A stretch of 64,000 nt of DNA from Phycisphaerae bacterium (GTDB taxonomy: Bacteria > Planctomycetota > Phycisphaerae > UBA1845), in contig JAJDEA010000079.1 in NCBI GenBank assembly GCA_029260035.1, positions 4,803 to 68,802 of the forward strand, read 5' to 3'. Of this stretch, positions 1,717-20,270 are shown one piece after another; position 1 is the first letter of the stretch; the number at the start of each line of letters is the position of its first letter. The notes beneath the pieces are model-generated. The model did not search any database and was not told the DNA's origin. It saw only the letters and a program-made list of their open reading frames with translations. Made by a program: the position numbers and the translations under genes.

Positions 1717-2856
1717 ATGGACCGGGAACAGTTCAAATCGACGACCGCCGGACGCCTCGTGCGGGGTGCCGAAGGTTATTGGGCCTTCGTGCCCGCCCCG
1801 CTGCCGCCGCCGCTGGACTATGATCGCGAAACGGTTGTCCTGCTTTCCCAGGCCGACGCGGCTCTGAGCGAGCTTTCAGGCCTAGGCCGCCACCTGCCCA
1901 ACCCGCACCTTCTCATCACACCGTATGTTCGCCGCGAGGCGGTGTTGTCGTCGCGCATCGAGGGGACGAAGACGAACTTGGCGGAACTGCTCCTTGACGA
2001 GGCGGACGCGACGGCGATTGCACAAGACCCCGAGGATGTGCGGGAAGTTCGCAACTACGTACGTGCGCTCGAAACGGGTCTTCGGCGGCTTAAGAAACTC
2101 CCGCTCAGCCTACGGCTCGTGCGCGACATCCATAAAGAACTCATGCGTGGTGCAAGGGGAGCGCATGCGACGCCCGGCGAGTTTCGTCGATCACAGAACT
2201 GGATCGGCCCCGCGGGCAGTACAGTCGAGACTGCGACGTACGTTCCCCCGCCACCAGATGAGATGAACGAATCGTTGGCCGATTGGGAGCGGTTTCTGAA
2301 TCAACGCGACGAACATCCCGACTTGGTGCAGAGTGCGTTGATCCACGAACAGTTCGAAGCCATCCATCCGTTTCTCGACGGCAACGGTCGCGTGGGCAGG
2401 TTGTTGATCACTTTGTTCCTGATGGAACGTGGTCGCCTGTCGCAACCGTTGCTTTACCTCTCCGCGTTCTTCGAAGCGCACCGGCAGGAATATTACGATC
2501 GACTGCAGGCCGTCCGCATGAGCGGTGACTGGATTGGCTGGATTCGGTTTTTTCTTCGCGGCGTGAAGGACGTTTCCTGTGAAGCCGTTGTAAGAGCCGG
2601 GAAGCTAATGGACCTTCGCGAGCGCTATCGACGGCGCCTCGAAGATAACGCCAAGGCGATGGCTCTGCTGGACCGGCTGTTCGAGAATCCGTACGTCACG
2701 GTGGCCCGCGCTGCGAAGCTGCTGAAGACCAGCAATCCGACGGCGCGCGCGGCCGTGAAGAAACTCGTGGATGCGGGGATGCTGAAGGAAACAACCGGGC
2801 GTTCGTGGGGCAAGGTCTTTCTGGCAAGACCGATTCTGCGGGCGATCGAAAAGTGA
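1717..2856 (+). CDS. Fic-family protein (AMPylation-type Fido domain)
   Basis: 379 aa containing the canonical Fic motif HPFLDGNGRVGR (HPFx[DE]GNGRxxR). Confidence 0.85.
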   Translation: MDREQFKSTTAGRLVRGAEGYWAFVPAPLPPPLDYDRETVVLLSQADAALSELSGLGRHLPNPHLLITPYVRREAVLSSRIEGTKTNLAELLLDEADATAIAQDPEDVREVRNYVRALETGLRRLKKLPLSLRLVRDIHKELMRGARGAHATPGEFRRSQNWIGPAGSTVETATYVPPPPDEMNESLADWERFLNQRDEHPDLVQSALIHEQFEAIHPFLDGNGRVGRLLITLFLMERGRLSQPLLYLSAFFEAHRQEYYDRLQAVRMSGDWIGWIRFFLRGVKDVSCEAVVRAGKLMDLRERYRRRLEDNAKAMALLDRLFENPYVTVARAAKLLKTSNPTARAAVKKLVDAGMLKETTGRSWGKVFLARPILRAIEK

Positions 2857-3066
2857 ACGTGTCGACCGTATCACCCTCGGCTGTGTTGAGACGCAATGAA
2901 GGCGTATGCAGCAAGAGCGGTGCGAAAGCGGGCTGGCAAGTACGGCCAGGAGTGGAGTAGCTTGGCGAGATCGGGGTCAGTCGCTCCGATATGCGCAAGC
3001 GCCGCCCCAAGACGCTTTTGTGGATCGTCGTAAAACCTGAAGTAGCATTGGTTTACGTCATCTTGG

Positions 3067-3115
3067 CTTCGGTTTTGTAAACCGCAGGTCTTCGGTTCGA
3101 GTCCGAACGGTGGCT
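3067..3115 (+). other. tRNA 3'-half-like fragment, possibly an att-site scar of an integrated island
   Basis: Reads variable loop AGGTC, T-stem TTCGG, T-loop TTCGAGT, T-stem CCGAA, acceptor 3' strand CGGTGGC, discriminator T. It is preceded by an anticodon-stem-loop-like segment. No matching 5' acceptor strand (GCCACCG) or D-arm lies upstream, so it is not a complete tRNA. Confidence 0.35.
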
Positions 3116-3269
3116 TTTCAGAAGTGCTTGTGGGGTAAGGAGTTATCTCTGCAAGTGTCATCAACCGACCTTCCTATTCGGCGGTAATTTGGCTGACATT
3201 GAGAGATCGAGACATCCGCCTCCTGTAGCTTGTCAACCACATCCTCTGGCAAATCTGAAATACACCTGG

Positions 3270-3360
3270 GTTTTGCGCAAGTTGCCAAATCTATAAGTTG
3301 TTCTAAAACATACCCGGTTTTTGCGCAGATTGCCGTTTCTATAAGTTGTTGTAAAATAAG
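3270..3360 (+). repeat. Two tandem ~45-bp direct-repeat units at the left end of copy 1, candidate transposase-binding sites
   Basis: Unit 1 is GTTTTGCGCAAGTTGCCAAATCTATAAGTTGTTCTAAAACATACC. Unit 2 is GGTTTTTGCGCAGATTGCCGTTTCTATAAGTTGTTGTAAAATAAGGA. Related half and full units recur at 12362-12430 and, diverged, at 20848-20900. Confidence 0.5.
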
Positions 3361-3640
3361 GACTTACGGAGATTGTTGATCCTAATCAATTGCGCTGCGC
3401 AGAACGGATCGGCGGTAGGAATCTGGGATTGGGCGCCGTGAAGGCGGGGGAGAATCGGCAATCGGCAATAGTAACGGCAATGTCCGAATTCGGACGAACG
3501 ATATTTCGCAGTGTGGCTGCAATTTCAAGACAACTGCCGAGCATGTGGTCTTCGACGGAATCGCTGGTCTTGGACGTCGTTCGGACCGCCTTCGACGGGA
3601 GTTTGGAAGCCGTTTGAATTGTGTCTGAAAACCATTCGTT
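3347..3640 (+). repeat. Conserved ~290-bp non-coding left-end block, paralogous to 12414-12705
   Basis: Nearly colinear identity with 12414-12705 by eye. It includes the palindrome TTGATCCTAATCAA and a run of CGGCAAT heptamers (AATCGGCAATCGGCAATAGTAACGGCAATG). It lies 3' of the leftward cargo genes in both copies. Confidence 0.6.
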
Positions 3641-3655
3641 AGGTGCTTCATCCAA

Positions 3656-5020
3656 CTATTGCTCATCCTTCACATTGAGTTGATCTGCGAGGCCTCTGAT
3701 AACTGGGTGCAACTTTATCGATGGAATCCTGTTAGACAATTCTCTATAAAAGGGCTCACGGCGATCGAGCATTTCCCGCACAGGATACGCATCGCTATCG
3801 CTCGTGACCAGTAATAGCATTCGATCAAAAATGCCCATTGCACTGAAGCGGTTGAGTCTGACAGAAGCGACGAGCACGGCTTCGAGTGCAAGAGTGCGAA
3901 TATCTGTGTCATCTGTTGATTCGTAAATGATTCGCATTCGTTTGGCGACTGAGTCTGCATAGGGAAATGCTTGGTTTCCAACGGCATCGTCAAGTGCCTG
4001 TACATATGCTTTGAGGACAGGTCGAAAATCATTTGCCGCCAGAGTCGCGGCGTTCGGGAGTATTTGCTGTGGGAGACGGTCAACCAATTCGAGGTAGGTT
4101 TCGCCCGAAGCGGGGATTGATTCTTGCGCGAGAAGCTGTAAGGCCTTGCGCAGGTCCTTAGCGCGATATTGGTGCCTCGCAACGCGTTCCTGGATTTGGG
4201 TGACTACGGCTTCGTATGCGCCAATCGGATTTGCTTCTGGGTCTTTTGCGACCCGGTAAATATTCACTCCGTCAAGCAATTCCCCAACGGTTTGATATCG
4301 CTCGTCGGGATGCTGTTCCGTGGCCCGTCGCACAGCGTGTTGGAGTCCAGGAGGTAATGCGCTTGGATCAATCAATGCAGGGTTGAGACCTGTGACAAGC
4401 TCATATAGAGTCTTGCCGAGTTGAAAAATGTCTGTACGTTCGTCCGCATCGCGACTACCTCCATCGATTCGCTGTTCTGGGGCGAGGTATCGTTCTGTGC
4501 CGATAACATGACGCTGTTTGGTTAGAATTGTAGTGTCACGCTTGCTTAGCTTTGCCAAACCAAAATCTGCGAGAACAACTGTCCCGTCAGCAAAGATTAG
4601 ACCATTCCCCGGTTTTATGTCGCGGTGAAAAGCTCCTGAGTTGTGGATCGCTTGTACACCTTCGCACAATTGCGTGAACGCGTCAAGTGCCATATCTTCG
4701 TCCTTCGACAGGGCATCCAGGCGTTTATCAAGACTGCTTTCGGCATAAGGCATCACGAAGTACGGCGGTTCTTTGTCAAGTTGAACATCTATGACCTCAA
4801 CGACGTTTGGATGGACTATATCCACGGCAATGCGTACTTCGCGACCGAATCTACGGATGGATTCATTGTCATCTCGATGGCAGTATTTGATAGCGACTAC
4901 TTTTCTATCGGTAAGACGCTCAGCCTTGACGACGGTGCCCATACCCCCAAACCCTACCTTGTCAAGTATGTGGTATTTGCCATCCAGAGTTGCGCCGGGT
5001 TTGAATTCATCTAGCCCCAT
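3656..5020 (-). CDS. Hanks-type Ser/Thr protein kinase (N-terminal kinase domain, ~180-aa C-terminal helical domain of unknown function)
   Basis: 454 aa. Gly loop GFGGMGTV, VAIK, HRDIKPGN, DFG, APE. Starts 10 bp after the stop of the upstream HTH gene, so it is likely co-transcribed. Confidence 0.8.
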   Translation of the reverse strand: MGLDEFKPGATLDGKYHILDKVGFGGMGTVVKAERLTDRKVVAIKYCHRDDNESIRRFGREVRIAVDIVHPNVVEVIDVQLDKEPPYFVMPYAESSLDKRLDALSKDEDMALDAFTQLCEGVQAIHNSGAFHRDIKPGNGLIFADGTVVLADFGLAKLSKRDTTILTKQRHVIGTERYLAPEQRIDGGSRDADERTDIFQLGKTLYELVTGLNPALIDPSALPPGLQHAVRRATEQHPDERYQTVGELLDGVNIYRVAKDPEANPIGAYEAVVTQIQERVARHQYRAKDLRKALQLLAQESIPASGETYLELVDRLPQQILPNAATLAANDFRPVLKAYVQALDDAVGNQAFPYADSVAKRMRIIYESTDDTDIRTLALEAVLVASVRLNRFSAMGIFDRMLLLVTSDSDAYPVREMLDRREPFYRELSNRIPSIKLHPVIRGLADQLNVKDEQ

Positions 5021-5030
5021 AGGGTTTGCC

Positions 5031-6461
5031 TCATTCTTGTTTACGTTTCTTATTAGTCATGCCCTTGTCACGCGGCGAGGCTTTCTTCCTCGCCGCTTTC
5101 GGTATCTTTCGCTTCGTAGTGGATGTCGCGCGACTCTGCTTTGGTGACTTCTTTGGTTTGGCTTCCGAACGCGACTTATCCGCTCCGACGTCATCGCTAC
5201 CATCAAGGATAAGCTGACCTGACACAAATAGCTGCTCCACATGGCTGTAGTCCGTCGATTCAATGGTCCCTCGTCGTAGCTCCCTGCGAATGCGCCTCTC
5301 TACTTTCTTGAGCAGATCGATTATCTCCTCGCGCTGCTCGTCAACACCGGGATCAAGTGCGTCTGGGCGTTTTGCGAAATTGAGCTGGAGTGGTTGCCGT
5401 CCAAGCCCATGAATCGATGACCAAGCGTGTGCATCGCTTAAGTTGTAGATTGTGTCGACGACGCATTGTAAGTTGAAGATCAGAGCCTCTCGTCCGAGCG
5501 ACGCCTTGGCGATGTCCGATGACAAAGTAGTGGTGAGGGACCCCATGATTGAAGGTCCAAAGTCGACGCGATCGGGAACATAGACATACTCACTCCGAGT
5601 TCGCGCTTCCTGTGTGCATGCCTCGGATATAAAAAACTCAACCTGACGACCGTTAACAGCCTCAACAACGTCACATGACACGGCATCGACACGAAATGAA
5701 TCGTCGTCATTTGGGTTGCTAAACCGCATCGTTAGAATCGTATCGGCGATTCCGCGCTCAATCGACCAATAAGAAAGTTGGGATATACACTCGTTCAAGC
5801 GGTCAGTACTGCTTAAGAGCCACCGACGATATGCTTCAGCCATCACTTCGGAGTATAGTCTCTGAAGCAGGTTTTTGTCGGTGACACTCGTAGCAAGGCG
5901 TAGCTCCTCCGACACAAACTCCTCGGGGATTGAGTATTCTGGCGTAGTTTCATTCTGGTACTGCGAATCGATCAAGCCAAGTTCGTACACAGCAGGAGGC
6001 CATGCAAGCAACCGAAAATCCAGATCAGCATGTCCCGATCGCAACGCCCACAGCATGAGCACCTGACTGGCTGAGCGCACTAGCGCGGATGTAAGGTCCG
6101 ATCCCGCCGGTGGTGAGTCGATGCCTTGAGGTACTTCATGATTCTCGACCGCCAACAGTCCGGCGATCAAGTTTTGGGCAATATCGTAGCCTGAGCTATA
6201 GAGTCGTTTGGCTTCAGTAGGTGAATTCCGAACATCTGCAAGGTGGAATAGTTGTCGGCGTTCGTGGTCAGATAAATCGAGCGCGTCAACGACTTGAAGA
6301 AGCACATACTTATTGATCTTACGACGTGAACGCTCCCAGTCGGAGATGAAATCCGGATTGCGGATATCCTTGAGACGTTGCGACAACGCGTGCGCGCTTA
6401 TACCGCGAGCTTTGCGAAGCGAGCGGAGTTGCTCGCCAAATCTATCTGGGGGGCGTTTCAT
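5031..6461 (-). CDS. XRE-type HTH protein, candidate repressor-c analogue of copy 1, with a large C-terminal domain and a lysine-rich tail
   Basis: 476 aa. N-terminal FGEQLRSLRKARGISAHALSQRL is an XRE-type HTH. The C-terminus KSRSEAKPKKSPKQSRATSTTKRKIPKAARKKASPRDKG is lysine-rich. It is transcribed leftward, divergently from the transposition genes. The N-terminal ~120 aa is homologous to 13399-14667. Confidence 0.6.
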   Translation of the reverse strand: MKRPPDRFGEQLRSLRKARGISAHALSQRLKDIRNPDFISDWERSRRKINKYVLLQVVDALDLSDHERRQLFHLADVRNSPTEAKRLYSSGYDIAQNLIAGLLAVENHEVPQGIDSPPAGSDLTSALVRSASQVLMLWALRSGHADLDFRLLAWPPAVYELGLIDSQYQNETTPEYSIPEEFVSEELRLATSVTDKNLLQRLYSEVMAEAYRRWLLSSTDRLNECISQLSYWSIERGIADTILTMRFSNPNDDDSFRVDAVSCDVVEAVNGRQVEFFISEACTQEARTRSEYVYVPDRVDFGPSIMGSLTTTLSSDIAKASLGREALIFNLQCVVDTIYNLSDAHAWSSIHGLGRQPLQLNFAKRPDALDPGVDEQREEIIDLLKKVERRIRRELRRGTIESTDYSHVEQLFVSGQLILDGSDDVGADKSRSEAKPKKSPKQSRATSTTKRKIPKAARKKASPRDKGMTNKKRKQE

Positions 6462-6589
6462 TCCGGGAATCTTACCACCTTCAGGGTTTATTGGTATCTT
6501 ACTGGGCTTTCCAAATAATCACGGCAAATTTCCGGATTATTTTATTGACATTCCGGATTTAATCTGGTATTCCCGCGTTCGTGGAAACT
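6462..6589. promoter_or_regulatory. Divergent control region of copy 1 with two TTCCGGATT direct repeats (candidate operators)
   Basis: AATTTCCGGATTATTTTATTGACATTCCGGATTTAATC lies between the leftward repressor-like gene and the rightward regulator/transposase operon. The corresponding region of copy 2 (14668-14788) has a different sequence. Confidence 0.35.
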
Positions 6590-6826
6590 ATGGAGCCGAG
6601 ATTTCGACGCGATGCGATCCGGGAGTTAATGGAACGTGAGGGTCTAAACGCCAGCGCCTTCGCATCCCGAGCCTCGGTTCAAAGAACGCTGATTGGCGGA
6701 TGGTTGGCAGGCGTCGTGACACCGCAGGTCGGAACGCTTACGCGTCTATGTCGCGTGTTCAATGTTCCGATCGATTTCTTCTTCGACCAGGCGCCGAGCG
6801 ATCCGGTTAAGCAAGGAATGGTATGA
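6590..6826 (+). CDS. Small HTH-like DNA-binding protein (Ner/Cro-position regulator)
   Basis: MEPRFRRDAIRELMEREGLNASAFASRASVQRTLIGGWLAG... Paralogue at 14789-15034. 4-bp ATGA overlap with the next gene. Confidence 0.5.
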   Translation: MEPRFRRDAIRELMEREGLNASAFASRASVQRTLIGGWLAGVVTPQVGTLTRLCRVFNVPIDFFFDQAPSDPVKQGMV

Positions 6827-7134
6827 GTAGAAGCACAGACAACACGAAGCCAATCCCACGGGTAACGGTGCGGTGTCTGAATCGGGTTCTCATCGGCGAG
6901 CGCATCCATGATCTTCGAGTCGAACGCGGCTGGAAGGCTCTTCAATTAGCACGCGCGACGGGAATTCCACGAAGTACGATTGCTGCGATCGAAACCGGTC
7001 GAATGCTCCCGGACCCTGACAGATTTCTGGTACTCGCCGCAGTGTTTTGCATTTCGGTCGATTTTCTCATGACGGGTAGATCATCGCCCGTCGAGGCTAT
7101 GCATGATGGCAACGAGCACACAAACGAGAACTGA
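6823..7134 (+). CDS. XRE-family HTH regulator
   Basis: GWKALQLARATGIPRSTIAAIETGRMLPDPDRFLVLAAVFCISVDFLM is a typical HTH_3 domain. Paralogue at 15031-15330. Confidence 0.65.
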   Translation: MSRSTDNTKPIPRVTVRCLNRVLIGERIHDLRVERGWKALQLARATGIPRSTIAAIETGRMLPDPDRFLVLAAVFCISVDFLMTGRSSPVEAMHDGNEHTNEN

Positions 7135-7669
7135 GGATATGAACGCAAATGCAATAGGGCGAAGCGTACCTTTCCCAGGCGAATGGGTGACGATTTCCGA
7201 AGCCGTACGACTGACGGGCGAACGACAGGGAATATGGTGTCGACGCGCTAACCGTGAATTTAGCAATGCACTAGACGTCGGTCGCGCCTCACATGCGATC
7301 AAAGCACCCATTGGCGGTGGCAGTTCCCGAATCATTTGGTGGCTATATCGCGGGCTTGACGCACGCTTGGCATTGGATTTGGACGAACAAATTCGTCGAG
7401 ACAAGGCCAGTGTTTTTCCATTCTCGAAAGAGAAGCAAAAGCGAGCTTGGCGCCGATGTCGTTGGGTCGTTGAGTGGCGTCGACTATGTAACGAGGAACC
7501 CAAAGGTGGACGAACACGAAGACAACTCGCCGGGCTAGTTGTGAGCGCGGCGAAACTGATAGACGGCAATTGCTTCAAGATCAGTATCCGATCACTTCAG
7601 GGATGGTGGCGTCGCTATGCTGCCATAGGCCGTGGTGGCGGTATCGTCGGAGTCGAAGGGTTGATATAA
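7103..7669 (+). CDS. Stand-alone paralogue of the MuA-like transposase N-terminal DNA-binding region (candidate transposition regulator)
   Basis: GEWVTISEAVRLTGERQGIW...RIIWWLYRGLDARLALD...FKISIRSLQGWWRRYAAIGRGGGIVGVEGLI aligns with the N-terminus of 8268-10613 (DWLTVDQAARLTGDSPRTIRW...AVWLIHRRLDHRL...FTVSVRSLQIWRRAYNDTTPGGRIAGIAGLI). Confidence 0.55.
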   Translation: MMATSTQTRTEDMNANAIGRSVPFPGEWVTISEAVRLTGERQGIWCRRANREFSNALDVGRASHAIKAPIGGGSSRIIWWLYRGLDARLALDLDEQIRRDKASVFPFSKEKQKRAWRRCRWVVEWRRLCNEEPKGGRTRRQLAGLVVSAAKLIDGNCFKISIRSLQGWWRRYAAIGRGGGIVGVEGLI

Positions 7670-7722
7670 ACGATGCGACTGGTGAGAGTCATAGGGACGA
7701 CACAAGGATGATGGAGGCAACG

Positions 7723-8019
7723 ATGACGAGTACCAAGAAGCGAGCGAAGACGAAACGTGCTCGAAGCGTAGCCAGCGTCAGTCGCAAGACGGCGACGGCC
7801 AAGACAAGAAGCAATCGAGACCGGAAGCTCGTGCTAAGTGTTTCTGACGTTGCGATTTTGGACCGAATGCTTGAGGACGGTTCAATCAGTGAGGTCGTCA
7901 CTTTGTCAGCGAGTGATCTGGCGACTTGGGTTCACAACGCCGGAACCGACGCGGATCGAGCGGAAGCGCTCGTGGCAGTCTTACCGGTAGCGAGGCGTGT
8001 GTACGCGCGATGCAATTAG
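7723..8019 (+). CDS. Hypothetical protein with Arg/Lys-rich N-terminus (conserved in both copies)
   Basis: GGAGG lies 5 nt before the ATG at 7723. MTSTKKRAKTKRARS... Paralogue at 16203-16500. Confidence 0.4.
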   Translation: MTSTKKRAKTKRARSVASVSRKTATAKTRSNRDRKLVLSVSDVAILDRMLEDGSISEVVTLSASDLATWVHNAGTDADRAEALVAVLPVARRVYARCN

Positions 8020-8020
8020 A

Positions 8021-8230
8021 ATGACCGACACGATCGACAGTCCACAGGTCTTTCCGTTTCGACCGGACATGTGCCGAGCTATTGAGCACACGGACACGCC
8101 GGAGCGTGAGGCGGCACTACGGCAGGCGCACGCGCTCATCGATCGGCTCGGAACAGCGGACGTGATTGCGACACTCCCGGTGTTGGGCAAATACGCCCAT
8201 TCGGTAGAGCAGGAGCGTAGGCCTGTTTGA
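8021..8230 (+). CDS. Hypothetical small protein (conserved in both copies)
   Basis: MTDTIDSPQVFPFRPDMCRAIEHTDTPEREAALRQAHALIDRLG... Paralogue at 16502-16711. Confidence 0.4.
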   Translation: MTDTIDSPQVFPFRPDMCRAIEHTDTPEREAALRQAHALIDRLGTADVIATLPVLGKYAHSVEQERRPV

Positions 8231-8267
8231 ACGGAGATAGGCTGGACAGAATCGCGAGTAGAAATCC

Positions 8268-10613
8268 ATGGCGTTAGTGGCACGAAATCTTGCGACGGAA
8301 ATCGACGAAAGGGATTGGCTGACAGTCGATCAGGCCGCACGTCTTACCGGCGATTCGCCGCGTACGATTCGCTGGCGTGCTTTGAATGAAGCTGGTGATT
8401 CACGTCGTAGCGGACGAATGCCGCTAGCCCGGAAAGCACCGTCTCGCGATGGCCGAACGAAGGCCGTATGGCTGATTCACCGACGCCTGGATCATCGTTT
8501 GTCCCGCAACGTAAGTAAGCCCGACCGAGAAAGCCGCGATCGTAACGTGCTTCTCGAAAAGTATCCGAAACATGCCATCGATGGAGCCTATCGCAAGGCT
8601 CACTGGCTCCGACGATGGGATCAACTTTGTCAGGAACATCGATTAGCCGGTGAGTCCGAACTGACACTTGCTCGGAGAGTCGTTGCCGAGGCCAAAGCCG
8701 TTGAGGCGGGTCAATTCACTGTGAGCGTACGAAGCCTGCAAATCTGGCGAAGGGCTTATAACGACACAACACCCGGTGGTCGAATTGCCGGTATTGCAGG
8801 GTTGATCGATCGGCGCTCGTTATCCGGGAATCGCGACGGCGGTGCTACTGGCTCAGTTGAGGGACGGTCGCCCGACGCGGTCGAGTATTTTTATGGTTTG
8901 TATCATTGCCAGAGCAGGCCGAGTGCCAAGACGTGCCATGCCGCAACACTTCGAGAATCCAATCGGCAGGGATGGGAATGGTCGGTGAGTTATTCCGCAA
9001 CATTGAAGTGGCTGAAAGTCTACGACGATCGTTCGGTGACGTGCCTCATGCGTGAGGGACACGACAAGTGGGCACGGAAATACATGGCGCACAATGAGGT
9101 TGATTACTCACTGATTGATCCGGGAGCGCTTTACGTTTGCGATCACACTCAGCTTGACTGCTGGTGCGAGCACGACGGGAAGCAACTACGACCGTGGCTG
9201 ACGGCGATACAGGACTGTCGTAGTCGTCGGATCGTCGGGTACCACGTCGGCATCGCACCGCATCAAGACGCGATTGTTGCAGCCATGCTTATGGCATTTC
9301 GAGAATGCGCCATACCGGAACGTATGCGGATCGATAACGGTCGGGATTTTACGTCTCGGCTGTTGACTGGCATTACCAAGGCAACCCGCGACCGGCTGCG
9401 CACAGAGCACGGACCAGACTGGCACCGCGTTCTCAAGCGAGACGCGAATCTTGTCGAGTGTGTCGATTCGCGGTTCATGGGTATCGTGCCGGAGCTTGGC
9501 ATCGAGCTAGTCTACGCGATTCCGTACGCGCCTTGGTCCAAGGGGCAACTCGAGCGCTGGTTCCGAACCTATCACGACCTGTGCTGCAAAACGTTTGCGA
9601 GTTATTGCGGGAATTCGGTGCTGACGAAACCGGAGTGTTTGGAAGCAATTCGTCGCGGCTATACGAAGGATCAAAAGCGGCGCCTTCGCAAGCGATACGG
9701 CAGGGCATGGAAGAAAGTGGCCGTGCTTCGGTTCGTCGATACTCGTGATGTACCAACACTGGATCAAGTGCGAGCGGCGACGGCTGAATCGATCGAAGTT
9801 TATCATCGCAGCCCGCACAGCGCCGACGATATGGGCGGTCGCACGCCCTTTGAAGTGTGGGGTACAGCGACGACGCTTCGCCGTGCCGAGGATCGCGACC
9901 TATTGTTCTTCATGCAGTCGCGTGGCGTCTACAAAGTTGGCCCCAATGGTGTTGGGTTCCGGGTTGGGAACAGGCGGCTCACCTACGGTGCTGCCGCACA
10001 GGAGCTTTACCGGCTTCGTGGCCGCGATGTGTTCATCACGCTCGATCCGTCCGACTTGTCGCACTGCTACGCTTGGACGCCAGAGCGTGCCAACCGCCGA
10101 TTCATTGTACGGTTGGATTCCAATGATCGACTATCACCTGCTGCAACGGTCGATGATTTGCGGGAAGCCAGCGCCACGATAGAGCGGCGGCGGAAGATTG
10201 GACGCAAGGCGCAACGTGAAGCACCCAAGCGAATGCGGTCAGTATCACAGGAACTCACGGCTCAGCGTCGCGAGCATGTGCAGGAACTTCGTGCGACCGG
10301 CACGGATGGGAAACCAAACGCCAATGTGAAGGTCGTCCGAACGGGGTTTGAAGGGGCATCGAAACCGGTTCGGACGCCATCCGCAAGCGGAAGTGCAAGA
10401 GACTTGAGTGCCGAGCGCGAGGCGCTTGGGTTTGTGCCGCCGCCTCCCGATCCTGAACCGAAACAGGAACGCGCGACGTTGGATATGATCGCTGGGAATG
10501 TGTGCTTGCCCAAGGATGGTAGCGAGCAAAAAGACGGCAAGGACGCCGAGGAGCCTAAATCGGACTTGCTCAGTCTGATTGCGGGGAATCGGCATGAACG
10601 AACAAACGAATAA
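8268..10613 (+). CDS. MuA-like DDE transposase (rve-type integrase core)
   Basis: 781 aa. N-terminal Mu-type DNA-binding region. Candidate catalytic triad D (VCDHTQLD), D (RIDNGRDF), E (PWSKGQLERWF). The long C-terminal region probably contacts the ATPase. Confidence 0.85.
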   Translation: MALVARNLATEIDERDWLTVDQAARLTGDSPRTIRWRALNEAGDSRRSGRMPLARKAPSRDGRTKAVWLIHRRLDHRLSRNVSKPDRESRDRNVLLEKYPKHAIDGAYRKAHWLRRWDQLCQEHRLAGESELTLARRVVAEAKAVEAGQFTVSVRSLQIWRRAYNDTTPGGRIAGIAGLIDRRSLSGNRDGGATGSVEGRSPDAVEYFYGLYHCQSRPSAKTCHAATLRESNRQGWEWSVSYSATLKWLKVYDDRSVTCLMREGHDKWARKYMAHNEVDYSLIDPGALYVCDHTQLDCWCEHDGKQLRPWLTAIQDCRSRRIVGYHVGIAPHQDAIVAAMLMAFRECAIPERMRIDNGRDFTSRLLTGITKATRDRLRTEHGPDWHRVLKRDANLVECVDSRFMGIVPELGIELVYAIPYAPWSKGQLERWFRTYHDLCCKTFASYCGNSVLTKPECLEAIRRGYTKDQKRRLRKRYGRAWKKVAVLRFVDTRDVPTLDQVRAATAESIEVYHRSPHSADDMGGRTPFEVWGTATTLRRAEDRDLLFFMQSRGVYKVGPNGVGFRVGNRRLTYGAAAQELYRLRGRDVFITLDPSDLSHCYAWTPERANRRFIVRLDSNDRLSPAATVDDLREASATIERRRKIGRKAQREAPKRMRSVSQELTAQRREHVQELRATGTDGKPNANVKVVRTGFEGASKPVRTPSASGSARDLSAEREALGFVPPPPDPEPKQERATLDMIAGNVCLPKDGSEQKDGKDAEEPKSDLLSLIAGNRHERTNE

Positions 10614-11736
10614 CGAACACGCCTTTGATCTTCTTTCTGAATCGTCGCGCGTGGCAAGGACGGCAAGGATGCTCGATCCGGATAAACAACTCAAGGACAA
10701 TCAGCGTAAAGACACTTGCGAACGTGTGCTTCGGTTTATCGAAGAACACGGCATCACCCAAGCAGCCGTGGCCCGCGAAGTGGGCATTAGCTCGACCACA
10801 ATCAGCGATATACTTCGTCTCCGGTACAAAGGCAAGACGTGTGATGCGCAGCTCGTCAAGTTGCATAATTGGCTTGAACTGGCCGCACGCCGCGAGAACC
10901 TCTTGCGTAACCGTCAATTCATTGAGACTTCGGTTGCGAAGGAAATCCTTCAAGTGGCCTCAATTGTCGCGGAAACATGCCGTATCGGTGTCATTTTTGG
11001 ACCTGCGCAGATCGGCAAGACGTTTGCGCTCACGGCGATCGAAGGTGACCAGCGATTCGGCGACCCGGTTCTCATACGGATCGATGAATCGATGCTCCGC
11101 CCTATGCCGGTGTGCCGTGCACTCGCGTCACGGTTTGAACTCAGCACGAATGGTCCGTTCGATACGCTATTCAGGCGGATCATCAAGCGGTTGGCAGGCA
11201 CCAAGCGCATGCTGATATTCGACGAAGTCGAACGCGTGAACTACAAGACGCTCGAAATGATCCGTGACCTGCACGACAAAACCGGCTGCCCTGTCTTGCT
11301 TGCAGGTAAACCGATGATCTTCGCAAGGCTCGGGTTTCGTGAGGTAGGCGATTTTTCGGAAGTAACGGACCAACTGGCCGCACGTGTTGTGATTCGGCGC
11401 GACCTTACTGAACGCACGCGTGGCGATCAACCCGAGCCGTTATTCAGCCTCGAAGACATACGCAAACTGATTGGTCGATCTGAACTGAATCTGCGAGTAT
11501 CGAAGGACGCCGAAAAGTGGCTGCAAGAAAGAGCATCCACGCTTGGCATGGGTGGCATCGGAGCCGCGCTCGTCGCACTTTATCTTGCCGCGAAAGTGGC
11601 ATTCTCGAAGGGCGGCGAATCGATCACAAATACTGATTTGGAAAAGGTTTCCGACTTAACGATCGGGCATGAGAGCGCGTCATACATCGCCGATGTGGTA
11701 GCAGAATCATCCGGTGTCATGCGGAGGGTTGTTTGA
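10594..11736 (+). CDS. MuB-like AAA+ ATPase transposition helper with N-terminal HTH
   Basis: N-terminal HTH GITQAAVAREVGISSTTISDIL. Walker A GPAQIGKT. Walker B LIFDEVE. Overlaps the end of the transposase gene by ~20 nt. Confidence 0.8.
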   Translation: MNEQTNNEHAFDLLSESSRVARTARMLDPDKQLKDNQRKDTCERVLRFIEEHGITQAAVAREVGISSTTISDILRLRYKGKTCDAQLVKLHNWLELAARRENLLRNRQFIETSVAKEILQVASIVAETCRIGVIFGPAQIGKTFALTAIEGDQRFGDPVLIRIDESMLRPMPVCRALASRFELSTNGPFDTLFRRIIKRLAGTKRMLIFDEVERVNYKTLEMIRDLHDKTGCPVLLAGKPMIFARLGFREVGDFSEVTDQLAARVVIRRDLTERTRGDQPEPLFSLEDIRKLIGRSELNLRVSKDAEKWLQERASTLGMGGIGAALVALYLAAKVAFSKGGESITNTDLEKVSDLTIGHESASYIADVVAESSGVMRRVV

Positions 11737-11783
11737 AATAACAAGGTTGTTCCGAACGGAACTCAATAGTTATCGCGGTGGAT

Positions 11784-12230
11784 ATGATGATCGCAAACAT
11801 AAGAACAGAACGAGGTTCGAGCACACCAAAGCAACGGCAACTGCTTCACCAGCTTAAGAGGCGGTGGGGTTGGACGGACGATCAGCTTCACGACGCGATC
11901 GGCGCAGTAAGTACAAAGGTTCTGTCCGCCGCCGACGCGAGCCGTTGCATCCGTCGTCTAGGCGGCGGAGAGTTGCCGAATCCGCCCGGTCGAAAGCCAG
12001 CCCCGTATCAGGGAAGGAGACAGAAGACTGACGCAACTCGCATGATTGCTCCGGGACACGAAGAGCAAATCGAACGGTTGCTCCGCGAGCACTTTGGCGA
12101 CTTGGAATCCGGCTTAGCTTGGCTCGAAAAGAACTTTGACGTGCAATGTACGCGCGACCTTTTGACAGCGAAAAGAGCGGGTGAAGTGATCTACGTTCTC
12201 AAGGAGATGATCGCCCGAACCAATAAATGA
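11784..12230 (+). CDS. GemA/gp16-like (DUF1018-like) small regulatory protein, tentative
   Basis: ~149 aa. KQRQLLHQLKRRWGWTDDQLHDAIGAVSTKVLSAADAS resembles the GemA-family N-terminal pattern (K..LI.KIHIA...LGLDDD.YR..L..V.GK.S). It is the last gene before the right end. Confidence 0.5.
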   Translation: MMIANIRTERGSSTPKQRQLLHQLKRRWGWTDDQLHDAIGAVSTKVLSAADASRCIRRLGGGELPNPPGRKPAPYQGRRQKTDATRMIAPGHEEQIERLLREHFGDLESGLAWLEKNFDVQCTRDLLTAKRAGEVIYVLKEMIARTNK

Positions 12231-12360
12231 GACGGCTTTGACCGTTATTTGAAGTGCCTTCGATGGCCGTTCAAACGGCCTTCGGAATTTGAAAACTCAC
12301 AACGCTCCCGACGACTCGTTATACGCAAAACCCGAGTCGATCAGGGAGCGTTCGTCTTAT
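12231..12360 (+). repeat. Conserved right-end block of copy 1, containing an inverted copy of the end core
   Basis: Near-identical to 20718-20847. TACGCAAAACCCGAG at 12321-12335 is the reverse complement of CTCGGGTTTTGCGTA; compare CTGGGTTTTGCGCA at the left end. Confidence 0.55.
12265..12290 (+). terminator. Possible intrinsic terminator after the GemA-like gene
   Basis: Hairpin GGCCGTTcaAACGGCC followed by TTCGGAATTT. Copy 2 has a partly compensatory variant GGCTATCCAAACAGCC. The T-tract is weak. Confidence 0.25.
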
Positions 12361-12706
12361 ATCCGTCGCGCAGAGTAGTTCCGTTTCGCGCAGAGTACGG
12401 TTCCCCTTTAGAGTTGTTGTAAAATAAGGACTTACGGGAATTGTTGATCCTAATCAATTTCGCAGCGCAGAACGGATTGGCGGTTGGAACCTACAATTGG
12501 GCGCCGTGAGGGCGGGAGAGAATCGGCAATCGGCAATAGCAACGGCAATGTCCGGAATCGGACGCACAAAACTTCGCAGTACCGCTGCAATTCCAAGCCA
12601 GCCTCTGATCCTGTGATTTTCGACTCAACCGCTGGTTTTGGACGTCGTCCGGACCACCTTCGACGGCGGTTTGGACGCCCTTCGATAGTGGTTGGACGAG
12701 GCTCGA

Positions 12707-13396
12707 TTATAGAGTATTCCATACCTCGATCCCCCCTTCGCCGACAACCCAAAGAAATAGAAGAATCCCAGCCGCGAAGAATGCGCCGCTTAGCCAAAAC
12801 CAGAACTTCCGAGCATACTTTTCGACTTTCAGCACTGCCGTAAAAACTCGGTTGTGTCGAATCTGGACTCCTTCGTGGTCGTGTTTCCGATTCATTGGCT
12901 GAAGGTTTGAATCAATAATCCTGAATGCGTCATCCGGTTTCAATGGTTGTAGCCCATGCGCTGAACCACACATTTGAAGCAAAGCAATACGCATTTCTTT
13001 CGATGCACGCCTTTCGGCAATCCACAGAAATTCCCGCAGTTGAGCTGGACCTGCATGGTCTTTTCGGTAGTCACCAAAACTACCGTACCTTTTGACGATC
13101 TCGGGGCAGGCGATCCAATAGATTGCTTGCCCAATTACGAAGAGACCGGACATGAGGTAAAAACGCTGCCAACTGAACGGCAGTGCAATCGTAACAGTAA
13201 TCGGAGCATCAATGCCGAACCCGAGATGCGAGAAGTCGAGGGTATGTTGACCTGCAAAGGGAGCGAGCAACTTGGCAGCGATGGGCACAACGAGTAGCCA
13301 AACAAATGAAAATGTGACGAGTCGGCTGTTGCCGAGTGCTCGGAGCAAGCCCCAGTGGAAACCGCTGTCCCAAGTTGCCGTCTTAAGGTCTACCAT
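12707..13396 (-). CDS. Small integral membrane protein (cargo of copy 2)
   Basis: 229 aa with several hydrophobic helices (LVTFSFVWLLVVPIAAKLLAPF, LMSGLFVIGQAIYWIACPEIV, FWFWLSGAFFAAGILLFLWVVG). No recognisable family. Starts 2 bp after the stop of the upstream HTH gene. Confidence 0.5.
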   Translation of the reverse strand: MVDLKTATWDSGFHWGLLRALGNSRLVTFSFVWLLVVPIAAKLLAPFAGQHTLDFSHLGFGIDAPITVTIALPFSWQRFYLMSGLFVIGQAIYWIACPEIVKRYGSFGDYRKDHAGPAQLREFLWIAERRASKEMRIALLQMCGSAHGLQPLKPDDAFRIIDSNLQPMNRKHDHEGVQIRHNRVFTAVLKVEKYARKFWFWLSGAFFAAGILLFLWVVGEGGIEVWNTL

Positions 13397-13398
13397 AA

Positions 13399-14667
13399 CT
13401 ACGATTTGCGTTTCTTCTTGGCTTTACCCTTGGCACGTTTGGTTGTTTTCGTCGTTTGCTCATTAGAAACGGTTGAATCGGATCGTGTCTCTGTCTTCAT
13501 GAGAGTCTTCGCTGACAATACAAGCTTCAGCATATTGGCCATCTCGCTCTCGGCCTCATCATAGACATCGCCTAGCGCATCCATCTTGTCAATGTTGCGC
13601 CTTGGAGCATCCGCCAACTGGAGATACATGTCGTACATAGCAACTATGACAAGGTGCTTTCCTTTTGGCATTAACCTCAGACTGAACGCGGCGTCGTGGA
13701 TGATCTGTTGGACGTATGCCGAGACTGGCTGTTCCCACTGTGCGCGGTCAAGAAATTCTCGTGCCAGAAATGCTGCGTGGACAGCCATTACGTCTACTGA
13801 GTCAAGTGGGTGCGGGAACACACGGAGATTGTCAGACTCGCTCATTGCACTGCAGGACGACCAAACTCTATCAATCAGCAGGCGTTCACATGTACGCGAA
13901 ATAACTTTTGCACTTACACCTTGCGCATTCAAAAGTCGGTCCGCTCGACCGTCGGCAAAATCGAACGTCAACCTTGTCTGAAGCAGCGGATCCCAGTCCA
14001 TCGAGTACCGACTCATCGCGGAAGCCAGTGTCATTGACCGATCTAAATCAGAGAAAAGCCAGAGGCGGTACACTCCGGCCATCGCCCTGCCGTTAATGGA
14101 AGTTCCGAGGGTCGAATTTACAAACCGCTTTTCCAATGAAGAGGGTAGAGCAACTGTTGATAACAGTCCCTTGGGTATAGGATGCGCCGACTCTTTCCGC
14201 TTCACGATCTTATTTTTGTAGACCCATTCTGGCCACTTAATGGCGTCTACACCATACTCGGTGAATCCACTTATTGCATAGAGAGCCAGGAGAAAGCAGG
14301 CTGGTACAGTGGCGTCAGACACCCCGTCCAACACGTCTTCGTCGATAGGCCCATGCTCGACATATGCCAAGGCGTTGGCTACGTTCGATGCGGCTATTTG
14401 CGCATCGTCTGTTAATTCGCTCCAGACATCTGGGTGATTTCGGTTGAACGCCAACTTCATGAGTTGCTGGCGTTCAGACGGAGTCAGACCCAGTTTTTGG
14501 ACAACCACACTTAGAATATCCATATTGACGGTGCGGTTGTACCGTTCCCATCCACCAATATATGTATCGCTTTTCCCGACGGCGCGAGAAACGGCCTGGG
14601 CGGTCATTCCTCGCTTTGTACGGAGTTTCTGTAGATAGACGCCGAATTCGTCGTGTGTTTGGGACAT
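13399..14667 (-). CDS. XRE-type HTH protein, candidate repressor-c analogue of copy 2, with a divergent C-terminal domain and a lysine-rich tail
   Basis: 422 aa. FGVYLQKLRTKRGMTAQAVSRAVGKSDTYIGGWERYNR is an XRE-type HTH. C-terminus TKTTKRAKGKAKKKRKS. The N-terminus is homologous to 5031-6461; the remainder is different. Confidence 0.6.
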   Translation of the reverse strand: MSQTHDEFGVYLQKLRTKRGMTAQAVSRAVGKSDTYIGGWERYNRTVNMDILSVVVQKLGLTPSERQQLMKLAFNRNHPDVWSELTDDAQIAASNVANALAYVEHGPIDEDVLDGVSDATVPACFLLALYAISGFTEYGVDAIKWPEWVYKNKIVKRKESAHPIPKGLLSTVALPSSLEKRFVNSTLGTSINGRAMAGVYRLWLFSDLDRSMTLASAMSRYSMDWDPLLQTRLTFDFADGRADRLLNAQGVSAKVISRTCERLLIDRVWSSCSAMSESDNLRVFPHPLDSVDVMAVHAAFLAREFLDRAQWEQPVSAYVQQIIHDAAFSLRLMPKGKHLVIVAMYDMYLQLADAPRRNIDKMDALGDVYDEAESEMANMLKLVLSAKTLMKTETRSDSTVSNEQTTKTTKRAKGKAKKKRKS

Positions 14668-14788
14668 GGCCGTATATTAGCCTCACAAGGTATATCCGCA
14701 ATGATATATCGTCGCGGCCATGGAAAGTGAAAATTATTTCATTTATTCTATAGACAAAGTAATTGAAATTACCGATAATCGAATCAGA

Positions 14789-15034
14789 ATGAATTTCTAT
14801 GAACCGAGATTTCGACGCGATGCGATCCGGGAGTTGATGGAGCGAGAGGGGCTGAACGCAAGCGCCTTCGCATCCCGAGCGTCGGTTCAAAGAACTCTGA
14901 TTGGTGGATGGTTGCCAGGCGTTGTGACACCGCATGTCGGAACGCTTACCCGCCTGTGCCGTGTGTTCGATGTTCCGATCGATTTTTTCTTCGACCAGGC
15001 GCCGAGCGATCCGGTTAACCAAGAAACGGTATGA
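14789..15034 (+). CDS. Small HTH-like DNA-binding protein (paralogue of 6590-6826)
   Basis: MNFYEPRFRRDAIRELMEREGLNASAFASRASVQRTLIGGWLPG... Confidence 0.5.
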   Translation: MNFYEPRFRRDAIRELMEREGLNASAFASRASVQRTLIGGWLPGVVTPHVGTLTRLCRVFDVPIDFFFDQAPSDPVNQETV

Positions 15035-15330
15035 GTAATAACACACCCAATACGAAGCGAATCGCACGCGTAACAGTGCCGTGTCTGAATCGCGTTTTGA
15101 TCGGCGAGCGCGTTCACGATCTTCGAGTCGAACGCGGCTGGAAGGCTCTTGAATTGGCTCGGGCAACCGGAATTCCACGAAGCACGATTGCCGCGATCGA
15201 AACCGGACGGATGCTTCCGGACCCTGACAGATTTCTGGCGCTCGCCATGGTGTTCGGTGTTTCGGTTGATTTTGTCATGCTCGGCGAACCGGTTCCCTGC
15301 GACGCAAGACAAGGACCAACGGATGCGTAA
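15031..15330 (+). CDS. XRE-family HTH regulator (paralogue of 6823-7134)
   Basis: GWKALELARATGIPRSTIAAIETGRMLPDPDRFLALAMVFGVSVDFVM. Confidence 0.65.
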   Translation: MSNNTPNTKRIARVTVPCLNRVLIGERVHDLRVERGWKALELARATGIPRSTIAAIETGRMLPDPDRFLALAMVFGVSVDFVMLGEPVPCDARQGPTDA

Positions 15331-16150: not shown

Positions 16151-16202
16151 ATGGTTCAGTGATTAAGAGTCATAGCAACGGCACAAGGATGACGGAGGCA
16201 GC

Positions 16203-16500: not shown

Positions 16501-16501
16501 A

Positions 16502-16711: not shown

Positions 16712-16748
16712 ATGACGATCGGTTGCATAGAACTGCGAGTAGGAACTC

Positions 16749-20223: not shown

Positions 20224-20270
20224 AATAAAAAGGTTGTTCCGAACGGAACTCGACAGTTATCGCGGTGGAT

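What the first reader, a model, noticed from the sequence alone, without database searches (positions are those of the whole stretch)
3656..6461. Copy 1 cargo: repressor-position HTH protein co-transcribed with a eukaryotic-like Ser/Thr kinase, a candidate superinfection-exclusion/abortive-infection module
Seen in sequence: the 476-aa XRE-HTH protein (5031-6461) is transcribed leftward, divergently from the transposition operon. This is the position and orientation of repressor c in Mu. Ten bp downstream in the same operon is a 454-aa Hanks-type kinase (GFGGMG, VAIK, HRDIKPGN, DFG, APE) with a ~180-aa uncharacterised C-terminal domain. Established knowledge: genes co-transcribed with a prophage repressor are expressed in the quiescent state and are classically exclusion functions. 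Lambda rexAB sits downstream of cI, and a prophage-encoded Stk kinase near the 933W immunity region has been reported to exclude HK97. Inference: this kinase is cargo of a mobile element, expressed with the repressor, and is a candidate defence or host-manipulation effector rather than housekeeping signalling.
Basis: partly seen in the sequence, partly recalled or inferred. Interest (0 to 1): 0.7.

Follow-up and report, generated by a model that had tools for sequence, protein, structure and literature searches.

The report
Transposon-borne candidate anti-phage protein kinase
A small Mu-like jumping gene carries, just behind its own regulator gene, an intact eukaryotic-type protein kinase whose relatives elsewhere sit inside restriction-modification operons and other phage-defence islands, so it is probably a stand-alone defence gene picked up as cargo and not a partner of the regulator.

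Summary
Two leftward ORFs, a 476-aa XRE-HTH protein (5031-6461) and a 454-aa Hanks kinase (3656-5020) with all catalytic motifs, lie 10 bp apart and diverge from a MuA/MuB-like operon.

The element is a ~9 kb compact Mu-like transposon, present as two diverged tandem copies. It is not a prophage.

The large HTH protein is a rare core gene of this transposon family (about 30 clusters). It and its control region vary together as an immunity-like block. The gene behind it varies: a kinase here, a 229-aa membrane protein in copy 2, and other genes or none in relatives.

The kinase belongs to a separate family of about 110 or more members, with a kinase domain plus a ~195-aa all-helical C-terminal domain that has no Pfam or PDB match. 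None of the 14 relatives examined elsewhere is accompanied by this HTH. Three of nine close relatives sit between hsdS and hsdR of type I R-M operons, next to PADLOC defence candidates. Others are lone cargo on plasmids or beside integrases, and four sit in ordinary chromosomal settings.

Best reading: a single-gene, Stk2/PD-T4-6-like abortive-infection kinase inserted into the regulator's operon. This rests on association only and is untested. The "HTH-kinase module" reading is not supported.

The parts
3656..5020 (-). Cargo gene: 454-aa Hanks-type Ser/Thr kinase. The kinase domain is about residues 10-260 (nt 4241-4993). The all-alpha C-terminal domain is about residues 261-454 (nt 3659-4240).
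   Evidence: Searches cover the domain hits and motifs. In a 74-sequence family alignment the catalytic residues are invariant. The AF2 model has pLDDT 94.7. Foldseek against the PDB matches only the kinase domain, with PknB, Stk1 and PknA as best hits. The C-terminal domain has no Pfam hit.
5031..6461 (-). 476-aa large XRE-HTH protein. It has an HTH at residues 7-71 (nt 6249-6443), an orphan body of about 330 aa, and a disordered basic tail from residue 416. It is a core gene of the transposon family and a candidate immunity repressor.
5021..5030 (-). 10-nt spacer between the HTH stop and the kinase start. A GAGG overlaps the stop codon.
   Evidence: The pattern scan places no terminator-like site in the spacer.
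6462..6590 (.). Divergent control region with short repeats: TTCCGGATT twice, GGWATCTTAC twice, CATTCCGG twice. It is unrelated in sequence to the copy-2 control region (14668-14800).
   Evidence: Homology between the two copies (88%) resumes at 6593/14801, the start of the ner-like ORF.
6581..7134 (+). Two small rightward HTH genes: a ner/cro-like 81-aa gene (6581-6826) and a 103-aa gene (6823-7134).
   Evidence: The ner-like protein is conserved in L005 and L007.
8268..12230 (+). Transposition module: MuA-like DDE transposase (8268-10613), MuB-like AAA+ ATPase (10579-11736) and a 150-aa ORF (11778-12230).
3254..3655 (.). Left-end region of copy 1. It holds two 48-nt tandem repeats, each carrying the terminal motif GGKTTTTGCGC (3254-3349), followed by a 274-nt block that is 84% identical to the copy-2 left end (3344-3617).
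   Evidence: The motif CGCAAAA[AC]CC occurs only four times in the 64 kb window, all at element ends.
12231..12409 (.). Right-end region of copy 1. It carries the inverted terminal motif ACGCAAAACCCGAGTCGATCA (12323-12343). Copy 2 abuts it.
12707..14667 (-). The equivalent block in copy 2: a 422-aa large HTH protein (13399-14667), then after a 2-nt gap a 229-aa protein with hydrophobic helices (12707-13396) that is unrelated to the kinase.

Best explanation
The kinase is a self-contained accessory gene. It has an active Hanks Ser/Thr kinase domain fused to a family-specific all-helical C-terminal domain.

It has been captured in the cargo slot of a compact Mu-like transposon. That slot lies between the 3' end of the element's own large XRE-HTH regulator gene and the left-end DNA.

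Because it sits 10 nt behind that gene on the same strand, it is probably read through from the regulator's promoter. It would then be made whenever the element is quiescent.

Its most likely job is phage defence of the Stk2, PD-T4-6 or 933W-Stk kind. In that model the helical domain holds the kinase off or recognises a phage-derived cue. The activation loop (T163, T164, T167) then becomes phosphorylated, and broad phosphorylation of host or phage proteins aborts the infection.

The large HTH protein is not its partner. It is the element's own divergent regulator. It most likely acts as an immunity repressor on the adjacent control region, which would explain how two related copies coexist in tandem.

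Shown here: gene structure, an intact catalytic site, cargo status, independence of the two families, and the defence-island neighbourhoods of homologues. Inferred: co-transcription, repressor function, the sensing role of the C-terminal domain, and anti-phage activity.
For: 1. Cargo status. The same slot holds a kinase in copy 1 and an unrelated 229-aa membrane-type protein in copy 2. It holds nothing real in L007/L008, a different truncated ORF in L009, and a convergent 194-aa ORF in L093. Kinase GC3 is 0.475, the element core about 0.59, and the host flank 0.63-0.70.

2. A distinct kinase family. About 110 full-length homologues share the C-terminal domain, mostly as singletons, and the catalytic residues are invariant. 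Distant plasmid members were confirmed by hhalign at 98% probability.

3. Neighbourhoods of homologues.
- P0018, P0019 and P0010 lie between hsdS and hsdR of type I R-M operons. In two of these loci (L002, L090) the kinase gene overlaps the end of hsdS by 4 nt.
- In those loci they sit beside HEC-07 (E 2e-116), PDC-S54 (E 1.6e-113), PDC-S21 (E 2e-116) and PDC-S14 (E 1.6e-104).
- P0048 abuts a prophage integrase.
- Acinetobacter plasmid copies sit among VapBC, RelE/ParE and BrnTA toxin-antitoxin genes and a DUF3800 protein (PDC-M04A).
- The Variovorax, Cupriavidus and Ralstonia copies sit amid integrases and IS elements.

4. None of these 14 contexts contains a homologue of the large HTH protein.

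5. HTH-large is a core gene. It is found with the ner-like gene and MuA in L005, L007, L009 and L093. The variable block includes the control region, and homology resumes at the ner-like ORF.

6. Precedents. The 933W kinase is co-transcribed with cI and aborts HK97 infection (PMC3564112). A eukaryotic-like Ser/Thr kinase was recovered in a defence screen (PMC9519451). The KKP module is another case (PMC11341870).
Against: - There is no functional test of any member of this family.
- The closest homologue (P0002, 67% identical) is a lone gene between purD and a thioredoxin-like gene. It has no mobile or defence markers nearby and no compositional anomaly.
- P0038, P0077 and P0088 are also in ordinary-looking chromosomal settings.
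- The PADLOC PD-T4-6 models also hit housekeeping PASTA kinases (PMC11514479), so that hit carries little weight.
- The C-terminal domain alone matches no PADLOC, Pfam or PDB entry, so its sensing role is a guess.
- No full-length member was found in IMG/VR or in the GenBank phage set.
- The context sample is small (14 loci) and was not compared with a background set of kinases.
- Co-transcription was not measured.
Confidence: 0.55

Rival explanations
1. Passenger signalling kinase. The gene is an ordinary regulatory Ser/Thr kinase of the kind that is abundant in Planctomycetota-like genomes. It was picked up by the transposon by chance and has no defence role.
For: The closest homologue, P0002, and also P0038, P0077 and P0088, are lone chromosomal genes without mobile or defence neighbours. 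The kinase domain is most similar to the housekeeping kinases PknB, Stk1 and PknA.
Against: There is no conserved synteny among homologues, which are mostly singletons scattered across phyla. Three of nine close homologues are embedded in type I R-M operons next to defence candidates. Distant members are cargo on small plasmids among toxin-antitoxin genes. No phosphatase, FHA or receptor partner lies in the element.
Confidence: 0.2
2. Element-control kinase. The kinase phosphorylates the large HTH regulator, MuA or MuB, or a host nucleoid protein, and so tunes transposition or immunity of the element. It may also have defence as a by-product, as the KKP module does in Pf prophages.
For: The kinase gene is tightly linked to the regulator gene, 10 nt downstream on the same strand. 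The KKP precedent shows a kinase on a mobile element controlling both the element's state and defence (PMC11341870). A distant family member also sits just downstream of a different XRE-type regulator (HTH plus M78 peptidase) on a Variovorax ICE-like region.
Against: Every other member of this transposon family examined lacks a kinase. Copy 2 carries an unrelated membrane-type protein in the same slot. In the contexts examined, the kinase family is mostly found without any transposon or XRE neighbour.
Confidence: 0.15
3. Obligate two-gene system. The large HTH protein and the kinase work together, either as a hipBA-like antitoxin and toxin pair or as a sensor and effector pair. This is what the first reader's 'module' implies.
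For: The layout is an XRE-HTH gene directly upstream of a kinase gene in one apparent operon, which resembles hipB-hipA. The large orphan body of the HTH protein could be a sensor.
Against: The two families do not co-occur anywhere else examined. HTH-large relatives have other downstream genes or none, and 14 kinase contexts lack HTH-large (and the context calls). The kinase has the Hanks fold, not the HipA fold.
Confidence: 0.08

Closest known systems
PD-T4-6 (single-gene Ser/Thr kinase defence system from the E. coli pangenome screen; PADLOC models PDLC04039-04064)
   Same: It is a single-gene Hanks kinase. The best PADLOC hit is PDLC04042 at E 3.6e-55, covering profile positions 5-278 of 292. 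A eukaryotic-like Ser/Thr kinase was recovered as a defence gene in that screen (PMC9519451).
   Different: Only the kinase domain aligns. The ~195-aa helical C-terminal domain matches no PD-T4-6 model when tested alone. The models are unspecific and also call the conserved PASTA kinase of S. thermophilus (PMC11514479).
Stk of Shiga-toxin phage 933W (kinase co-transcribed with cI that aborts HK97 infection)
   Same: The logic is positional: a kinase gene sits directly behind the element's regulator gene and would be expressed in the resting state (PMC3564112). Stx-converting phages appear among the kinase-domain tblastn hits.
   Different: The host element here is a ~9 kb transposon, not a lambdoid prophage. 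Of 79 phage records that matched, none covered 80% or more of the query. The one annotated Escherichia phage kinase listed aligned to residues 56-253 only.
Stk2 of Staphylococcus epidermidis (abortive-infection Ser/Thr kinase)
   Same: The proposed mechanism is the same: a kinase activated by a phage cue. The PADLOC Stk2 model hits the kinase domain at E 3e-21.
   Different: The match covers only profile positions 131-354 of 500. The N-terminal and C-terminal parts of Stk2 are not matched. Only 1 of 28 isolated C-terminal domains gave a marginal hit, at E 0.0097.
Bacteriophage Mu early region (attL, c repressor, ner, A, B)
   Same: The order and orientation are the same: end, leftward regulator, then rightward small HTH, MuA-like and MuB-like genes. 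A variable block of regulator plus control region behaves like an immunity region.
   Different: There are no phage late genes. Elements of this family are about 9-9.5 kb. The regulator is 476 aa with an orphan body. It has no detectable similarity to phage repressors beyond the HTH and none to the MuA N-terminus.
Defence cargo of Tn7-like transposons (Benler et al. 2021, PMC8649781)
   Same: In both cases a transposon with a MuA/TnsB-type transposase and an AAA+ partner carries variable defence-type cargo near one end and accumulates at a preferred site.
   Different: No TnsA, TnsD or TniQ homologues were detected here. The cargo sits in the regulator's operon. Membership of the Tn7 family was not tested.

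Membership tests
Hanks-type (eukaryotic-like) Ser/Thr protein kinase, Pfam PF00069 | Glycine-rich loop, VAIK lysine, alpha-C glutamate, HRD catalytic loop with Asn, DFG, and APE | tested here: met
   GFGGMG 23-28, K45, E61, HRDIKPGN 132-139, DFG 152-154 and APE 180-182. These residues are invariant in 74 homologues. Pkinase scores E 2e-37. The fold matches PknB, Stk1 and PknA.
PD-T4-6 (PADLOC) | Significant hit to a PD-T4-6 profile, in a single-gene system | tested here: met
   PDLC04042 scores E 3.6e-55. Homologues occur as lone genes. The profiles also hit housekeeping kinases, so meeting this criterion says little.
PD-T4-6 (PADLOC) | Full-length homology, including the region C-terminal to the kinase domain | tested here: not met
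   Best-stretch alignments for the window kinase end by residue 312, and most end at 214-286. Isolated C-terminal domains give no PD-T4-6 hit.
PD-T4-6 / Stk2 / 933W Stk (functional class) | Kinase-dependent protection against phage by abortive infection | not testable with these tools
   This needs plaque and growth assays with wild-type and K45A or D134A alleles.
Stk2 (S. epidermidis) | Homology across the Stk2 profile outside the kinase core | tested here: not met
   The Stk2 model matches only profile positions 131-354 of 500. The C-terminal domain alone gave a marginal hit in 1 of 28 members, at E 0.0097.
Repressor-linked exclusion gene (lambda rexAB, 933W stk) | Co-transcription with the element's maintenance repressor | tested here: inconclusive
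   The genes are on the same strand with a 10-nt gap, and no terminator-like site lies in the gap. The copy-2, L009 and L005 cargo ORFs are likewise within 10 nt of the HTH gene or overlap it. There are no transcript data, and repressor function is unproven.
Phage Mu repressor c family | Sequence or fold homology to Mu-type repressors; DNA-binding domain shared with the transposase N-terminus | tested here: not met
   Only generic XRE-HTH matches were found. There was no hit in 50,697 phage records or in BFVD, and no similarity to the MuA-like N-terminus.
Mu-like transposition module | DDE MuA-type transposase plus MuB-type AAA+ ATPase, with terminal inverted motifs | tested here: met
   phrog_310 scores E 5e-77 and phrog_296 E 5e-45. 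The rve, DDE_2 and Mu-transpos_C hits are weak. The terminal motif is inverted at 3268/3316 against 12324.
Mu-like prophage | Head, tail and lysis genes within the element | tested here: not met
   Copy 1 holds only eight or nine genes between its ends. The relative L093 is bounded at about 1450 and about 10960, giving roughly 9.5 kb.
HipBA toxin-antitoxin | HipA-type (PI3/4-kinase-like) toxin next to a small HipB HTH antitoxin | tested here: not met
   The kinase has the Hanks fold and gives no HipA hit. The HTH protein is 476 aa, and its family occurs without a kinase.

The most novel reading that the evidence does not exclude
Two linked ideas remain open.

First, the kinase-plus-helical-domain family could be an uncharacterised phosphorylation-based anti-phage effector with its own dedicated sensor domain, repeatedly recruited between hsdS and hsdR of type I R-M operons.

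Second, the slot behind the large HTH regulator of this rare, tRNA-proximal, tandemly accreting Mu-like transposon could be a dedicated defence-cassette site. Its expression would then be wired to the element's immunity repressor, a transposon equivalent of the lambda cI-rex arrangement.
Probability: 0.2. Interest if true: 0.7.

Novelty: new variant of a known kind. Interest (0 to 1): 0.45.

Why it matters
If the kinase defends against phage, it defines a family of about 110 or more members with a previously undescribed sensor-like domain. Current tools label this family only through unspecific PD-T4-6 profiles.

It would also add kinases to the short list of effectors embedded in type I R-M operons.

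It would show that non-phage Mu-type transposons carry defence cargo expressed from their regulator's operon. That would extend to a new element type an idea so far documented for prophages and Tn7-like elements.

The large HTH protein, the variable control region and the tandem heterologous copies also offer a compact system for studying transposon immunity.

Tried and rejected
- The word-indexed search with HTH-476 found only one homologue. A full HMMER scan was needed.
With the three-sequence alignment it found nothing in metagenomes. The MuA alignment gave one genome locus and 12 metagenome loci.
- The exact look-up of the window's own kinase was not on record, and cluster look-ups carried no names. 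The source organism was therefore not determined. The nearest named homologues are from Planctomycetota MAGs.
- A search with the isolated C-terminal-domain alignment, meant to find the domain fused to other effectors, returned only two truncated kinases.
- Testing the C-terminal domain against Pfam, PDB sequences, PADLOC and Foldseek-PDB gave nothing.
- The Acinetobacter plasmid kinase appeared to align full-length to the Stk2 and PD-T4-6 profiles. That link was not reproduced with its C-terminal part alone, so it was dropped.
- The AFDB library was unavailable.
- No homology was found between the kinase C-terminal domain and the copy-2 229-aa protein.
- The XRE regulator next to the Variovorax kinase is unrelated to HTH-476.
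- IMG/VR and GenBank phages contain only kinase-domain-level relatives.
- The exact transposon termini and target-site duplications could not be fixed, because the copies abut and a ~65-nt segment follows both right ends.
Full report
**Observation**

They are 3656-5020 (minus strand, 454 aa) and 5031-6461 (minus strand, 476 aa). They are separated by a 10-nt spacer, with a GAGG overlapping the upstream stop codon.

The downstream protein is a complete Hanks kinase. It has GFGGMG 23-28, VAIK 42-45, HRDIKPGN 132-139, DFG 152-154 and APE 180-182. Pfam Pkinase scores E 2e-37. The upstream protein has one XRE-type HTH (HTH_31, residues 7-71, E 1.8e-8) and nothing else recognisable.

The pair diverges from a rightward operon. 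That operon holds two small HTH genes, two unknown ORFs, a 781-aa MuA-like transposase (phrog_310, E 5e-77), a 385-aa MuB-like ATPase (phrog_296, E 5e-45) and a 150-aa ORF.

**What the element is**

A second, diverged copy follows in tandem. Its MuA is 63% identical at the amino-acid level. The same gene order repeats at 12.4-20.9 kb.

A 10-nt terminal motif, CGCAAAA[AC]CC, occurs only four times in the 64 kb window. Two copies are inverted at the left end of copy 1 (3268, 3316), inside a 48-nt tandem repeat. One forward copy lies at each right end (12324, 20811).

Copy 1 is therefore about 9.1 kb and holds no phage structural genes. A metagenomic relative (L093) is bounded by homologous end sequences about 9.5 kb apart. 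This is a compact Mu-like transposon that copies the layout of Mu's early region. It is not a prophage.

The flanking genes to the right are ordinary chromosomal genes: a PQQ propeller, an RND pump and others.

**The HTH protein is a core gene of the element**

HTH-476 and the copy-2 protein HTH-422 are homologous over about 400 residues but only 25% identical. A word-indexed search of 5.8 billion proteins found a single relative. A full HMMER scan of 1.84 billion representatives found about 30 clusters of 415-480-aa proteins.

Every relative whose context could be read sits in the same position. It diverges from a conserved ner-like HTH gene and, where the contig reaches, from a MuA-like gene (L005, L007/L008, L009, L092-L094).

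Between the two window copies, 84-88% nucleotide identity holds in the left-end block (3344-3617 against 12412-12685). It resumes at the start of the ner-like ORF (6593 against 14801). Everything in between has been replaced: the cargo, the large HTH gene and the 130-nt divergent control region.

A regulator that varies together with its control region, between conserved flanks, is the classical signature of an immunity region. I therefore infer that HTH-large is the element's specific repressor. This is an inference and was not tested.

**The slot behind it is variable**

- In copy 1 the slot holds the kinase, 10 nt after the HTH stop.
- In copy 2 it holds an unrelated 229-aa protein with hydrophobic helices, after a 2-nt gap.
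- In L009 it holds a different truncated ORF, after a 6-nt gap.
- In L005 it holds another ORF, with a 4-nt overlap.
- In L093 it holds a convergent 194-aa ORF.
- In L007/L008 the HTH stop runs straight into the left-end DNA, with no real cargo.

The kinase also has the lowest GC3 in the region: 0.475, against about 0.59 for the transposition genes and 0.63-0.70 for host genes. The kinase is therefore cargo.

**The kinase belongs to its own family**

About 110 full-length homologues at 35-67% identity share both domains. Nearly all are singletons. They come from Planctomycetota MAGs, a genome labelled Arthrobacter citreus, Betaproteobacteria and metagenomes.

In a 74-sequence alignment all catalytic residues are invariant. 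The C-terminal domain has its own conserved positions, including an invariant R391 within an NRFAAM motif.

The AF2 model has pLDDT 94.7 and pTM 0.78. It shows a canonical kinase followed by about ten helices. Foldseek against the PDB aligns only the kinase domain, with PknB, Stk1 and PknA as best hits and TMq about 0.46. The C-terminal domain has no Pfam, PDB-sequence or PADLOC match.

More distant full-length members (25-28% identity) occur on plasmids. Their C-terminal domain was confirmed by profile comparison at 98% probability.

**Contexts of the kinase family**

Nine close homologues were examined:

- Three (P0018, P0019, P0010) lie between hsdS and hsdR of type I R-M operons. In two of these loci (L002, L090) the kinase gene overlaps the end of hsdS by 4 nt.
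- The other genes in those loci are PADLOC defence candidates: HEC-07 (E 2e-116), PDC-S54 (E 1.6e-113), PDC-S21/DUF4917 (E 2e-116) and PDC-S14/DUF4357 (E 1.6e-104).
- One (P0048) lies directly beside a prophage integrase.
- One is the window copy.
- Four (P0002, P0038, P0077, P0088) are lone genes in unremarkable chromosomal settings.

Five plasmid relatives were also examined:

- Two lie among VapBC, RelE/ParE, BrnTA and DUF3800 (PDC-M04A) genes on Acinetobacter plasmids, one of them only 10.5 kb.
- One lies at the integrase end of an ICE-like region in Variovorax, downstream of an unrelated HTH-M78 regulator.
- Two lie amid IS elements and integrases.

None of the 14 contexts has an HTH-large homologue. 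The kinase and the HTH protein are therefore independent units that happen to be neighbours here.

**Mechanism**

The best-supported reading is that the kinase is a single-gene accessory effector that works like Stk2, PD-T4-6 or 933W Stk. The steps would be as follows:

1. The kinase is expressed constitutively at a low level by read-through from the regulator's promoter.
2. It is kept inactive until the helical domain meets a phage-derived cue.
3. It then autophosphorylates on the threonine-rich activation loop (RDTTILT, residues 161-167).
4. It phosphorylates many targets and aborts the infection.

The 933W kinase is co-transcribed with cI and aborts HK97 infection (PMC3564112). Other precedents are the kinase from the E. 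coli pangenome screen (PMC9519451) and the Pf prophage KKP module (PMC11341870).

All functional steps are inferred. Only the intact catalytic site, the cargo status and the neighbourhood pattern are shown.

**Caveats**

- The strong PADLOC PD-T4-6 hits are not evidence on their own. The same models call the universally conserved PASTA kinase of S. thermophilus (PMC11514479).
- The context sample is small and has no background control.
- The closest homologue sits in a plain chromosomal setting.
- No family member was found in viral collections.

**Comparison and novelty**

The kinase meets the definition of a Hanks kinase and the loose PADLOC definition of PD-T4-6. It fails full-length homology to the PD-T4-6 and Stk2 profiles. 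I classify it as a new variant of kinase-type defence candidates, distinguished by its C-terminal domain and its recurrent embedding in type I R-M operons.

The regulator matches Mu's c repressor in position only, not in sequence or fold. The 'HTH-kinase module' reading is not supported.

Interest is moderate. The defence inference is plausible but conventional. The more unusual biology lies in the transposon family itself: an orphan large regulator, an immunity-like mosaic, and tandem accretion next to a tRNA-like site.

Noticed in passing
window 1717-2856 (+): The gene just left of the elements is a full-length SoFic-type Fic protein. It scores E 6.6e-123 against PADLOC SoFic over profile positions 5-358 of 361, and Pfam finds Fic_N, Fic and a winged HTH. 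Its GC is 61%. A recognised defence gene therefore neighbours the insertion site.
   Followed up: partly
window 3057-3115 (+); L007:5742-5815 (-): A degenerate tRNA-like sequence lies about 140 nt outside the left end of copy 1 (Rfam tRNA 25.8 bits, below the gathering score of 29; ARAGORN negative). In the relative L007 an intact tRNA-Arg(acg) lies about 100 nt outside the left end in the same relative orientation. This hints at tRNA-proximal target choice, which is unusual for a MuA/MuB-type element.
   Followed up: partly
window 3254-20905: Two heterologous copies of the transposon (MuA 63% identical at the amino-acid level) abut head to tail. A ~65-nt segment ending in CCTTTAGAG follows both right-end motifs (12344-12409 and 20830-20905). 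This segment is either part of the right end or a solo left-end remnant. Exact termini and target duplications were not resolved.
   Followed up: partly
window 12707-13396 (-): The cargo of copy 2 is a 229-aa protein with N-terminal and C-terminal hydrophobic helices and no hit in Pfam, NCBIfam, PHROGs or PADLOC. It sits 2 nt behind HTH-422. It could be a membrane-acting exclusion or abortive-infection effector.
   Followed up: no
L090:9445-11148; L104:5646-7942; L002:2994-3851: The type I R-M operons in Planctomycetota MAGs that carry kinase homologues also carry HEC-07, PDC-S21 (DUF4917), PDC-S54 and PDC-S14 (DUF4357) candidates between or beside the hsd genes. These operons act as multi-gene defence cassette sites.
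   Followed up: partly
window 3344-3617 and 12412-12685: A 274-nt left-end block is 84% identical between the copies, far better conserved than the adjacent genes. It contains CGGCAAT repeats and overlaps only implausible ORFs. It is probably a set of transposase-binding or regulatory sites and could be a non-coding RNA; the permissive Rfam scan of window 2800-6700, which covers the copy-1 block, found no family there.
   Followed up: partly
L093:9657-10950: The metagenomic relative has about 1.2 kb of extra sequence between the 150-aa ORF and its right end. This suggests a second cargo slot at the right end of the element.
   Followed up: no
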